A stretch of 64,000 nt of DNA, taken from Escherichia coli. GTDB taxonomy: Bacteria; Pseudomonadota; Gammaproteobacteria; Enterobacterales; Enterobacteriaceae. The notes beneath the pieces were generated by a model. It saw nothing but the letters and a program-made list of their open reading frames with translations. It searched no databases and was not told where the DNA came from. Position 1 is the first letter of the stretch. Each line of letters opens with the position of its first letter. Below, piece by piece: positions 59,631-62,600 of this stretch. The position numbers and the translations under genes were made by a program. The DNA is taken from NCBI RefSeq assembly GCF_003334385.1, contig NZ_QOWN01000004.1; one strand, 5' to 3'.

Positions 59631-62600
59631 TGAAGGGAATCGATCTTTCGCTTTTGCAACGCGTGCTAGATGCACTGGAAGAACAAGAAAATGCGCTCCT
59701 GGTATGGGGTGACACGGGCGGCTTTTTTAATCTGGATGAACTTTTAAGCGTTATCGGACGGGTTTTACCTGACGAAGATGCCGAAGTGGTTCTGGATCAA
59801 ATGCTAGAGGCCGCTATGCTGATCCAGGTGCCGCACGTCAGTGGCACGCCTGTCTGGCGAACCCGAATGGGGGAGACGGTCCATCTCATGCGCAACCTGC
59901 GCCAGTGGATGCATAAGCAAAAACTGGACCAGAGCAAAACGCTGGTATCGGACTATCGCTTTATTCGCCGGCCGCGCAGCTATCCCGACCGCGTTTACGA
60001 ACCGGCAACGCTGATTAGCGGCTGGAAAAAACAGCTGAAATTAAGCGATCGCGTTTGTGACATCATGCGCCAGGCGCTGGCGTCAGATAAGCCCTTCCTT
60101 CTGGCGGGTTTTCAGGTGCGCGCTACCGAACGCATTATGCAGTGCTGGCAGGATCATCAGGTGAAAAGCAACACGGCCAGCGGGACCATTGTCTGTGCTG
60201 GCACCGGTAGCGGTAAAACGCTGTCGTTTTACCTGCCTGCGCTAACCCGTCTCGCTGAGGATATTTGCAACAACCCTGAGCGCAAGGTGCGCATTCTCGC
60301 CATCTATCCGCGAAAAGAGTTGCTCAAGGACCAGTTTGCCGAAACTTTTTCACAGTGCCGCAAGCTTGACGACTATATGCTCACGGCGGCCGGAAGAAAA
60401 ATTCGTATCGGTGCCTTTTTTGGCGATACACCGGTGAAGGCGGAATGGTCTAAGGAAGACGTTAAGGGGAAGGTTGGTCTGCCGTTCGGGTTGATGAAAT
60501 GCCAGCAGCCCCACCCGCATCATCCTAAGCAGAGGTGCGGAGGGGCTCTCATTTGGCGTCGTGAGGACGTATTTGGCGAGCGTGAGGTACTTACCTGTAC
60601 GCAGTGCCAGCATCAGGTGGATCAGAGTGAAATCATGATCACCCGTGATGCGCAGCAACATCGCGGCGACGCGCCGGACATTCTGTTTACCACAACGGAA
60701 ATGTTGAACCTCCAGATGAACTCCACCTGGAGCAACCACCTGTTTGGCGTCGGCGAGGGCTATGGGCCGACGCTGGTTCTGCTCGATGAGGTCCACACCT
60801 ACAGCGGAACCACCGGCGCGCAAACTGCGTTTCTGCTGCGGCGCTGGATGCAGCGCACCGATTGTTTGCCGCATTTTGTTGGCCTGTCTGCAACGCTTAC
60901 CGACGCGCAGCACTTCTTTGCCAGGTTGGTGGGTGCCGCTGAGGAGCAGGTTGCGCTGATCCAGCCCTACATGGAAGATATGATCGAAGAGGGGGCCGAG
61001 TACCTGCTGGCGCTGCGCGGCGATCCGGTTTCTGAAACGGCATTACTCTCCACCACCATCCAGGCCAGTATGCTAATGGCGCGCATGCTGGATAGCAAAG
61101 CGAATAAGTCGCAAGGTACGTGGGGCAAGAAGACCTTCATCTTCACCGACACTCTCGACGGTAACAACCGTTTGTACCATGACCTCAGCGATGCCGAAGG
61201 TTGGGAGACGGGCCCAGGGCACTCGCGCATTGATCACTCACCGTTGGCTGTGTTACGTAGCCCTTTTGATAATACTGCACCTGAGCGGTCTAAAACCGAA
61301 CTGGGGCAAAACTGGAGGGCGGCCACGGATATTGGCCACGACCTCGCGGAAAACAAAGTCATTTCCCGAACGTCGAGCCAGGATGCCGGCGTTGATGCAT
61401 CAGCGGATGTCGTGGTCGCCACCTCTTCGCTCGAGGTGGGGTATAACGATCCGCTGGTCGGTGCCGTTCTTCAGCATAAGGCGCCGAACGATGTCGCCTC
61501 CTATTTGCAGCGTAAAGGTCGTGCCGGACGTCCACGAGGCATGCGTCCCTGGATGCTGGTGGTGCTCTCCGAGTTTGGCCGCGATCGCGTCGAGTTCCAG
61601 CGTTATGAAGGGCTAATGAGCCCGGAGATCAAACGTCAGGGTCTGCCGCTGGACAACCAGCACGTACAGAAAATGCAGGCAGCAATGGCAACCCTCGACT
61701 GGATCAGCAAAGTCGGTCAGTTCAAAGATCTCTGGAGCATGTTGAAAAAAGCTGAGCATAATCAGCTGAAATACAATCGAATGTATGGCCCGCTTATCAA
61801 ACTGATTGAAGAGGTGCTGAGCGGCGGCAGGCGGTTGAACGAATTGATGCGCTACCTTCAGGATGCTCTGCAATTATCTGATGGCGCGGTGCAGAATATC
61901 CTCTGGAGCCCGCCGCGCTCGATCATGTTTGAGTTTCTACCAACCATACTGCGTAACCTCAGAACGCGCTGGTCGGTTAACGGCGTGGAGTGGGCCGGAC
62001 TGCGTCCGAATCAGCCAAATAGCGAGGGCGAACAGCACCGGAGCAATTCACCCGTCCCGGAATACATCCCGCAGAACCTGTTTAGCGAGCTAAACTTGCC
62101 GGAACTGGACATTCGCCTGAAGCGTGGATTTGACGATGAAGACCACTGGGAAACTCTCTCTTTCTGGCAGGGAATACGTGAATTTGCGCCTGGGCGACTC
62201 TCTAAACGCTATGCCGTCAAATCGAACAAAAGTACCGACTGGCTGGTGCCACAATCCTACGAGCCGATGGCAGGGGAAGGGCGGCAATTTGTTGATTTCC
62301 AGATAAGCGATGCGTTCGGCGATAGCTGGCAAAACGAGTATGAAGTTGACTATATGGGAAAAACCATCAAGGTTGTTAAACCGTCGAAGGTCATGACCAC
62401 TCGGGCCGACATTCGCCGGATCAATGATAAAAGTAATGCGCAACTGCAATGGGTGTTCAACGTCATTAACCCCGCTATTGCTACGCCAGACGAGGTGCCG
62501 AAGGGACCCTGGAAGCACACGCTGAGCGATGTCACGTTCTACAACCACCAGCATATGACCCCGCTGGAACTGGTCCGCTTTTCTACTGGATCGCAGGCGT

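What the first reader, a model, noticed from the sequence alone, without database searches (positions are those of the whole stretch)
60496..60612. Cysteine/histidine-rich insert inside the helicase core of the large DEAH protein
Between the Walker A motif and the DEVH box the protein carries MKCQQPHPHHPKQRCGG...LTCTQCQHQ, a putative zinc ribbon (CxxxxH...C...CxxC). An insert at this position could act as a DNA or modified-base sensor.
Basis: seen in the sequence. Interest (0 to 1): 0.35.

Follow-up and report, generated by a model that had tools for sequence, protein, structure and literature searches.

The report
Zinc ribbon inside DpdJ helicase core
The cysteine-rich stretch is a real, strongly conserved four-cysteine zinc-ribbon module inserted into the first motor domain of DpdJ, the large helicase of the E. 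coli Dpd (7-deazaguanine) anti-phage restriction system. A 2025 preprint already noted it from structure predictions, and its histidines are a local, non-conserved embellishment.

Summary
The peptide MKCQQPHPHHPKQRCGG…LTCTQCQHQ is residues 289-329 of a + strand ORF starting at 59630, and lies between Walker A (AGTGSGKT, 190-197) and DEVH (386-389).

The protein is DpdJ of a complete dpd island (dpdC-A-B-E-F-G-H-I-J) in E. coli.

Across 254 homologues, C291, C303, C323 and C326 are about as conserved as the catalytic motifs. The family pattern is C-x2/4-C-x19-C-x2/4-C, a canonical zinc ribbon. The histidines sit in an 11-residue expansion of the first knuckle that is missing from about 96% of homologues, so they are unlikely to be metal ligands.

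AlphaFold2 models the insert confidently (pLDDT 94-98) as two beta-hairpins. Fold and Pfam matches are weak but nearly all to zinc ribbons.

Removing the insert in silico lets RecA1 align in one piece to Lhr and MrfA. This places the ribbon inside motif Ib, between the counterparts of two MrfA residues that contact DNA.

A sensor role for DNA or modified bases is untested. The module is on average acidic, which counts weakly against it.

A 2025 preprint already reports "a ZBM inserted into RecA1" of DpdJ. The finding is real, already known as a prediction, and of modest interest.

The parts
59630..64000 (+). dpdJ coding sequence. It runs off the window end, so 1456 of 1504 codons are seen.
   Evidence: PADLOC DpdJ models, E=0. 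NCBIfam NF041067 DpdJ equivalog scores 1689 bits against a cut-off of 800. 100% identical to dpdJ of E. coli AR_0017, where the product is 1504 aa.
60197..60220 (+). Helicase motif I (Walker A), AGTGSGKT, residues 190-197
   Evidence: Translation. G191, T192, G195, K196 and T197 are invariant.
60422..60430 (+). First half of motif Ib, G265-D266-T267. G265 aligns with MrfA G137, which contacts DNA.
   Evidence: Alignment of insert-deleted DpdJ to MrfA 6znp. MrfA DNA contacts from PMC7797055.
60443..60640 (+). Zinc-ribbon insert, residues ~272-337. Predicted strands 283-290, 306-310, 321-323 and 329-330.
   Evidence: AlphaFold2 pLDDT 94-98 across the insert. The insert has no counterpart in Lhr, MrfA or the two large defence helicases in the PDB, 9tu7 and 9wae (my guess: DruE). 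It is present in all 254 homologues; the surrounding segment, residues 263-353, is 70-101 aa long in every one.
60500..60502 (+). C291, proposed metal ligand 1 (first knuckle)
   Evidence: Cys in 251 of 255 homologues; invariant in A1.
60503..60535 (+). QQPHPHHPKQR, a His/Pro-rich expansion of the first knuckle, specific to the enterobacterial lineage
   Evidence: These columns are gaps in 91-98% of homologues for residues 293-299. The spacer between the first two cysteines is 2 in 144 sequences and 4 in 72; it is 11 in only 6.
60536..60538 (+). C303, proposed ligand 2
   Evidence: Cys in 249 of 255; invariant in A1.
60596..60607 (+). C323-T-Q-C326, the second knuckle (CxxC), proposed ligands 3 and 4
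   Evidence: Cys in 249 and 245 of 255. This is the only C-x(1-4)-C motif in the whole 1504-aa protein.
60641..60646 (+). T338-R339, second half of motif Ib. R339 aligns with MrfA R144, which contacts DNA, and falls within the 'NQRR' stretch of Lhr (exact Arg counterpart not resolved).
   Evidence: T in 243 and R in 252 of 255. Alignments; MrfA contacts.
60674..60706 (+). Motif Ic region, PDILFTTTEML, residues 349-359
   Evidence: Aligns to Lhr PPDVLITTPESL and MrfA IVITNPDML.
60785..60796 (+). Motif II, DEVH, residues 386-389
   Evidence: D386, E387 and H389 are invariant.

Best explanation
The stretch is a Cys4 zinc-ribbon module of about 65 residues inserted into the RecA1 domain of DpdJ. 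DpdJ is the YprA/MrfA-family SF2 helicase of the Dpd (7-deazaguanine) restriction-modification island.

The four cysteines C291, C303, C323 and C326 sit at the tips of two beta-hairpins and most likely hold one structural Zn(II). The His/Pro-rich loop between C291 and C303 is an enterobacterial expansion of the first knuckle and is not part of the metal site.

The module is spliced into helicase motif Ib. It lies between G265-D266-T267 and T338-R339, whose MrfA counterparts G137 and R144 touch the DNA backbone. It therefore projects from the DNA-binding face of RecA1, on the side where the tracking strand leaves the motor.

Inferred, not shown: it acts as a rigid architectural element. It may wall the ssDNA path, or it may dock the C-terminal 'canopy' domains or a partner Dpd protein. 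Nearly all DpdJ proteins have lost the Cys4 cluster of the C-terminal DUF1998 domain, so this is the only metal site they keep.
For: Identity of the protein and system.

Conservation: C291, C303 and C323 are invariant and C326 at least 90% conserved in 96 sequences with 25% mean column identity. In 254 homologues, 240 have all four Cys. In a few the fourth ligand position lacks Cys and a His lies close by, or an Asp in one. Three or four have lost all or nearly all of the cysteines yet keep the insert, a roughly all-or-none pattern expected for one metal site.

Motif: C-x2/4-C-x19-C-x2/4-C.

Structure: the AlphaFold2 model of residues 1-700 has mean pLDDT 94.6, with the insert at 94-98, and each cysteine pair flanks a hairpin turn. 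The isolated insert keeps the same secondary structure, with core pLDDT 82-90.

Position: insert-deleted RecA1 aligns in a single stretch to Lhr (E=1.2e-11) and MrfA. MrfA G137 and R144 are DNA contacts.

Only metal site: there is one C-x(1-4)-C motif in the whole protein, and only 6 of 130 full-length homologues have any Cys4 cluster after residue 700.

Independent statement of the same feature: preprint 10.1101/2025.09.15.676423.
Confidence: 0.8

Rival explanations
1. The ribbon is a sensor. It contacts the DNA strand as it passes motif Ib and distinguishes unmodified guanine from dPreQ0/dADG, or it detects DNA ends or structure. This would gate DpdJ translocation and the downstream PLD nuclease DpdK.
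Against: Mean net charge of the module is -2 across 254 homologues, and 0 in E. coli. Apart from the cysteines, the conserved residues are mostly hydrophobic or Gly/Pro positions (W309, L307, L321, G305, P292) or acidic (D313, E319); R320 is the one well-conserved basic residue (Arg in 144 of 255). There is no conserved basic or aromatic patch. In MrfA the contacts to the tracking strand are almost all to the backbone. There are no binding data.
Confidence: 0.12
2. The four cysteines bind iron rather than zinc. This could be a [4Fe-4S] cluster, as in the XPD/DinG domain that also sits between Walker A and Walker B. It could instead be a rubredoxin-like or DPH3-like single Fe, giving a redox-sensitive switch.
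For: The position between motifs I and II recalls the Fe-S domain of XPD/DinG (my own knowledge). The best Foldseek matches, and two of the top three sequence-profile matches, are DPH3/Kti11 CSL zinc fingers, which can bind iron; rubredoxins also appear. The DISARM authors raised redox sensing for the metal sites of DrmB.
Against: The closest helicases are MrfA, DrmA and Lhr, not Rad3/XPD. The two-knuckle C-x2/4-C…C-x2/4-C beta-hairpin layout is that of a mononuclear site, not a cubane. In a few homologues a His lies near the missing fourth cysteine, which is typical of zinc sites. The DPH3 and rubredoxin matches are not significant (E 0.08-1.3).
Confidence: 0.05
3. The Cys/His-rich stretch is a compositionally odd surface loop with no cofactor.
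For: In the single sequence the clustering is only weakly significant: 5.9% of shuffles reach it. The His-rich part is indeed an unconserved loop. Three or four homologues lack the cysteines.
Against: The four cysteines are conserved at 96-98% across sequences that are 37-55% identical overall, which matches the catalytic motifs. The module is modelled with very high confidence as an ordered domain.
Confidence: 0.03

Closest known systems
DpdJ 'zinc-binding module (ZBM) inserted into RecA1', as described in the YprA-family survey (bioRxiv 10.1101/2025.09.15.676423)
   Same: It is the same protein family, the same domain (RecA1) and the same kind of element. That study also states that it is the only ZBM in canonical Dpd and that the DUF1998 Cys4 cluster is lost. 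Both points were reproduced here.
   Different: Nothing differs in kind. This report adds the ligand assignment, the family-wide spacing C-x2/4-C-x19-C-x2/4-C, and the finding that the E. coli His-rich loop is a lineage-specific knuckle expansion. It also adds the exact insertion point inside motif Ib, and the rare cysteine-less variants. These details were not found in the preprint text or in supplementary table S2, as far as searched.
MrfA/YprA (PDB 6znp) and DISARM DrmA (PDB 7s9v, 7s9w), the closest solved helicases
   Same: Best structural matches to the model of residues 1-700 (Foldseek E 2e-18 and 2e-17; TM-score 0.47-0.60). Same SF2 motifs. RecA1 aligns in one piece once the insert is removed. 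According to the preprint, DrmA also carries ZBMs in RecA1.
   Different: MrfA has no insert in motif Ib and keeps its zinc in the C-terminal MZB/DUF1998 domain. DpdJ has the reverse arrangement. Whether a DrmA ZBM occupies the same loop was not tested here.
Classical Cys4 zinc ribbons (TFIIS, TFIIB, RPB9, topoisomerase I C-terminal domains, Trm112, DPH3/Kti11 CSL finger)
   Same: Two cysteine knuckles on beta-hairpins, separated by about 19 residues. These proteins lead the weak fold and profile matches.
   Different: No match is statistically significant, and no single Pfam zinc-ribbon family claims the module. Here the ribbon is embedded in a helicase motor domain rather than being a terminal or free-standing domain.
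Fe-S cluster domain of XPD/DinG helicases
   Same: Four cysteines are inserted into the first motor domain between Walker A and the DEAH box. In XPD/DinG the domain lies next to the DNA path.
   Different: It belongs to a different SF2 family, has a different (helical) fold and different cysteine spacing, and holds a cubane cluster rather than a mononuclear knuckle site. The resemblance is positional only.

Membership tests
DpdJ (Dpd system helicase) | Sequence match above the curated threshold of the DpdJ equivalog model | tested here: met
   NF041067.1 scores 1689 bits against a cut-off of 800. PADLOC DpdJ models give E=0.
DpdJ (Dpd system helicase) | Encoded within a dpd cluster alongside dpdA/B/C and dpdD-K | tested here: met
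   DpdC, A, B, E, F, G, H and I lie upstream in the window. dpdK, dpdD and queD lie downstream in the identical E. coli AR_0017 locus.
YprA/MrfA-like SF2 helicases | RecA1/RecA2 core with SF2 motifs, closest in fold to MrfA/DrmA | tested here: met
   Pfam DEAD and Helicase_C domains. Foldseek top hits are 6znp, 7s9v and 7s9w.
YprA/MrfA-like SF2 helicases | C-terminal DUF1998/MZB domain with a Cys4 zinc cluster | tested here: not met
   After residue 412 the cysteines are scattered (1032, 1076, 1151, 1219, 1381, 1406) and there is no CxxC. Only 6 of 130 full-length homologues have any Cys4 cluster after residue 700. The preprint reports this as a secondary loss within the family. Whether the DUF1998 fold itself persists was not tested here.
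Cys4 zinc ribbon | Two cysteine pairs (knuckles), each C-x2-4-C, conserved across homologues | tested here: met
   Knuckle 1 spacer is 2 in 144 sequences and 4 in 72. Knuckle 2 spacer is 2 in 127 and 4 in 91. The spacing between knuckles is 19 in 205 of 246. In this E. coli protein knuckle 1 is expanded to 11 residues.
Cys4 zinc ribbon | Knuckles located at the turns of two beta-hairpins forming a small sheet | tested here: met
   DSSP on the AlphaFold2 model shows strand 283-290, then C291…C303, then strand 306-310. It then shows strand 321-323, C323xxC326, and strand 329-330. pLDDT is 94-98. The isolated domain gives the same pattern.
Cys4 zinc ribbon | Four thiolates within coordination distance of one metal ion; zinc actually bound | not testable with these tools
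Cys4 zinc ribbon | Significant fold or profile similarity to known zinc ribbons | tested here: inconclusive
XPD/DinG-type Fe-S helicase domain | Rad3-family helicase core with a helical 4Fe-4S domain and an Arch domain inserted in HD1 | tested here: not met
   No XPD/DinG chain appears among the 50 Foldseek matches listed or among the sequence matches listed (best 60 of 102 for the profile search); the nearest are MrfA, DrmA, Lhr and Brr2. The insert is predicted as beta-hairpins, not helices.
CSL zinc finger (DPH3/Kti11) | Match to Pfam PF05207 at significance | tested here: inconclusive
   Three of 73 members match at E up to 0.1, with a best value of 6e-3. PDB DPH3 and DESR1 match at E 0.076-0.12. 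Foldseek probability is 0.25-0.41. The 19-residue spacing between knuckles is shared, by my reading of the DPH3 sequence; this is a resemblance only.

The most novel reading that the evidence does not exclude
The motif-Ib zinc ribbon is the element that lets DpdJ read the modification state of DNA. On this reading it inspects bases of the tracking strand as they leave RecA1. It stalls or licenses the helicase, and through it the PLD nuclease DpdK, depending on whether guanines carry the 7-deazaguanine mark. That would make it a base-modification reader built into a helicase motor motif.
Probability: 0.06. Interest if true: 0.7.

Novelty: already known. Interest (0 to 1): 0.2.

Why it matters
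How the restriction half of the Dpd system (DpdD-K) works is still unknown. DpdJ is its YprA-type motor. Knowing that DpdJ has one conserved metal site, and that this site sits inside a DNA-contacting helicase motif, gives a precise handle for mutagenesis at C291, C303, C323 and C326, and for deletion of residues 272-337. The element itself is an ordinary zinc ribbon and has already been noted from predictions, so the finding refines an existing annotation rather than revealing a new kind of feature.

Tried and rejected
1. That frame was wrong and full of stops. The correct frame starts 2 nt earlier.

2. Histidines as ligands: rejected, because those columns are gaps in about 96% of homologues.

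3. A fifth cysteine: 220 of 255 homologues have Cys at the position of F286, five residues before C291. It lies on the preceding beta-strand and is Phe, Ser or Tyr in the enterobacterial clade. I therefore treated it as a core residue and not a ligand; this is an inference.

4. A solved DpdJ structure: none is in the PDB copy.

5. Measuring Cys-Cys distances in the AlphaFold2 model: not possible, because only FASTA files reach the script environment.

7. Testing whether a RecA1 ZBM of DISARM DrmA occupies the same loop: not done. No DrmA sequence could be retrieved, because 7s9v is found by fold only and no residue alignment is returned.

The second attempt succeeded and lists the DpdJ wHTH, HTH and ALBA domains but gives no separate row for the RecA1 ZBM.

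Full report
**1. What is at the coordinates**

It lies in the + strand frame that opens with ATG at 59630 and runs past the end of the window. In protein numbering the stretch is M289-Q329. Cysteines are at 291, 303, 323 and 326, and histidines at 295, 297, 298 and 328. Walker A (AGTGSGKT) is residues 190-197 and DEVH is 386-389, so the stretch does sit between them.

**2. What the protein is**

PADLOC assigns the six consecutive ORFs from 49345 onward to DpdE, DpdF, DpdG, DpdH, DpdI and DpdJ, with E-values of 0 or nearly so. The three ORFs before them are DpdC, DpdA and DpdB. The NCBIfam DpdJ equivalog scores 1689 bits against a cut-off of 800.

The DNA is 100% identical to chromosomes of E. 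coli strains such as AR_0017. It is present in 47 of 5426 complete E. coli genomes. In AR_0017, dpdJ encodes 1504 residues and is followed by dpdK (PLD nuclease), dpdD and queD. The island sits next to tRNA-Leu(CAA) at 43667-43751 and an integrase gene at 43938-45182.

In Salmonella Montevideo, DpdA/B/C make the dPreQ0/dADG modification. [quoted passage not shown]

**3. Is it an insert?**

- The Pfam DEAD domain is split. Residues 185-244 match model positions 16-70, and residues 341-425 match positions 91-163.
- A profile of 96 DpdJ sequences aligns to mycobacterial Lhr as "…GDTPPNQR" (profile positions up to 273) and then "R-AMIANPPDVLITTPE" (from profile position 335). About 61 profile positions have no counterpart.
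- I deleted residues 272-335 in silico. RecA1 then aligned as one uninterrupted stretch to Lhr (E=1.2e-11) and to MrfA 6znp.
- In that alignment DpdJ G265 pairs with MrfA G137 and R339 pairs with MrfA R144. The chain numbering of 6znp is offset by +2.
- The MrfA paper names G137 and R144 as the motif Ib residues that bind the DNA substrate. It describes the strand leaving along RecA1 motifs Ib and Ic (PMC7797055).

The insert is therefore spliced into motif Ib, on the DNA-binding face of RecA1. The location is shown by alignment. Any consequence for DNA handling is inferred.

**4. Conservation**

A word-indexed search and an exhaustive HMMER search found a large family. There are 552 clusters at 50% identity with E at most 1e-30, and typical length is about 1500 aa.

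- In a 96-sequence alignment with 25% mean column identity, C291, C303 and C323 are invariant and C326 is at least 90% conserved. That puts them alongside K196, D386, E387 and H389.
- In 255 aligned sequences, Cys occupies these columns in 251, 249, 249 and 245.
- The joint pattern is CCCC in 240 of 254. Some of the other 14 are alignment slips. In four the fourth-ligand column lacks Cys and a nearby His (three cases) or Asp (one) could serve instead. Three or four have lost all or nearly all of the cysteines while keeping the insert. Loss that is roughly all-or-none is what one expects if the four residues serve one site.
- The spacer in the first pair is 2 (144 sequences) or 4 (72). Between the pairs it is 19 (205 of 246). 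In the second pair it is 2 (127) or 4 (91). This gives C-x2/4-C-x19-C-x2/4-C, a textbook zinc ribbon.
- The E. coli protein is unusual only in having 11 residues between C291 and C303. The His/Pro-rich residues 293-299 fall in columns that are gaps in 91-98% of homologues. The Klebsiella protein (81% identical) reads QQPQSKDPQQQ there.

The histidines are therefore not conserved and are unlikely to be ligands. In the single sequence the Cys clustering alone is only mildly unusual, since 5.9% of shuffles reach it. The case rests on conservation.

**5. Structure**

AlphaFold2 on residues 1-700 with the 96-sequence alignment gave mean pLDDT 94.6 and pTM 0.92, with 94-98 across the insert. The predicted elements are strand 283-290, then the C291…C303 loop, then strand 306-310, helix 311-315, strand 321-323, the turn C323-x-x-C326, and a short strand 329-330. 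These are two hairpins, each with a cysteine pair at its turn.

The insert alone (75 residues, 73-sequence alignment) kept the same elements, with core pLDDT 82-90. That suggests an autonomous module.

Searches with the models gave the following:

- The whole model is closest to MrfA (6znp, E 2e-18) and DISARM DrmA (7s9v and 7s9w, TM-score 0.58-0.60).
- Foldseek found DPH3/Kti11 CSL fingers, the ATCase regulatory zinc domain, and RNA-polymerase and ribosomal ribbons (E at least 1.1).
- The insert profile against PDB sequences found DPH3, TFIIB, rubredoxin, LysW and MCM (E 0.08-2), apart from a cytochrome c as the top hit.
- Individual family members hit Pfam Zn_ribbon_Elf1, Zn_ribbon_Nudix, TFIIB, Zn_ribbon_12 and others.

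I could not measure sulphur-sulphur distances because model coordinates are not exposed.

**6. The only metal site**

The 1504-residue protein has 16 cysteines and a single C-x(1-4)-C motif, C323-C326. The C-terminal cysteines are scattered. Among 130 full-length homologues, 125 have the RecA1 cluster and only 6 have any four-Cys cluster after residue 700. So the zinc cluster that defines the DUF1998/MZB domain of the wider YprA family is missing here.

**7. What it most likely does**

Shown: a conserved Cys4 two-knuckle module, confidently modelled, is inserted into motif Ib.

Inferred: it binds one structural zinc and forms a rigid projection at the DNA-binding face of RecA1, near where the tracking strand exits. 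It may shape the ssDNA path, or it may dock the C-terminal canopy domains or a partner protein.

The mean net charge of the module is -2 (0 in E. coli). Apart from the cysteines, the conserved residues are mostly hydrophobic or Gly/Pro positions (W309, L307, L321, G305, P292) or acidic (D313, E319); R320 is the one well-conserved basic residue.

An iron or Fe-S alternative is suggested by the positional analogy to XPD/DinG and by the weak DPH3 and rubredoxin matches. It is unlikely given the helicase family, the knuckle geometry and the His found near the missing fourth cysteine in a few homologues.

**8. Comparison with what is known**

A September 2025 preprint on YprA-family helicases (10.1101/2025.09.15.676423) used AlphaFold3 and HHpred on a DpdJ representative. 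[quoted passage not shown] It also states that only one zinc-binding module was detected in canonical Dpd, and that the DUF1998 four-cysteine cluster "was lost entirely in Dpd". Its supplementary table lists the DpdJ wHTH, HTH and ALBA domains but gives no further detail on the ZBM.

The feature is thus already on record as a prediction. This analysis confirms it independently. It adds the ligand set, the family-wide spacing, the lineage-specific His/Pro loop, the insertion point inside motif Ib and the rare cysteine-less variants. No experimental evidence for metal binding or function was found in the papers searched or in the PDB.

**9. Verdict**

Novelty is "already known". Interest is low to moderate (0.2). 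The element is ordinary, but it is a clean target for dissecting a restriction system whose mechanism is still open.

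Noticed in passing
window 43667-45182: tRNA-Leu(CAA) at 43667-43751 is followed directly by an integrase-domain gene (43938-45182) and then the dpd cluster. 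The housekeeping genes pepA (leucyl aminopeptidase), lptF, lptG and ahr lie upstream. This looks like a genomic island integrated at the leuX-type tRNA.
   Followed up: partly
L001 13491-15971 (E. coli AR_0017, downstream of the window end): Beyond dpdJ the identical E. coli locus carries dpdK (PLD-like), dpdD and queD. These are followed by a 'putative zinc ribbon protein', a YagK/YfjJ fragment and truncated IS30 and IS3 transposase genes, which probably mark the far edge of the island.
   Followed up: no
window 58794-59632 and 55760-58909: The longest ORF for DpdI starts at 58794, but the PADLOC model matches only residues 35-278. RefSeq annotates a 244-aa DpdI, which would start near 58896. 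The dpdI stop overlaps the dpdJ start by one base (TGATG at 59628-59632). dpdF/G, dpdG/H and dpdH/I also abut or overlap, which suggests translational coupling.
   Followed up: partly
homologues P0186, P0252, P0253, P0179 (region equivalent to window 60443-60640): A few DpdJ homologues keep the insert at about its usual length and keep its hydrophobic core, including the Trp at position 309 (and, in most, the Leu at 321). They have lost all or nearly all of the cysteines together. These appear to be metal-free degenerate ribbons.
   Followed up: partly
window 60485-60487 (F286) and homologues: In 220 of 255 homologues a fifth cysteine precedes the first knuckle by five residues (motif C-P-[FY]-L-x-C). 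The enterobacterial clade has Phe, Ser or Tyr there. Its role is unexplained; it could be a buried core residue or an alternative ligand.
   Followed up: partly
window 40820-41716 (- strand): A 298-aa ORF just outside the island has weak matches to the C-terminal part of HerA, CedD and VirB4-type ATPases (E 1e-6 to 1e-10, far below family cut-offs). It was not examined further.
   Followed up: no
DpdJ residues 1-150 (window 59630-60079): The N-terminal region before RecA1 is modelled with very high confidence as a small helix and strand domain. The preprint calls it a MukF-like winged helix. I did not analyse it.
   Followed up: no
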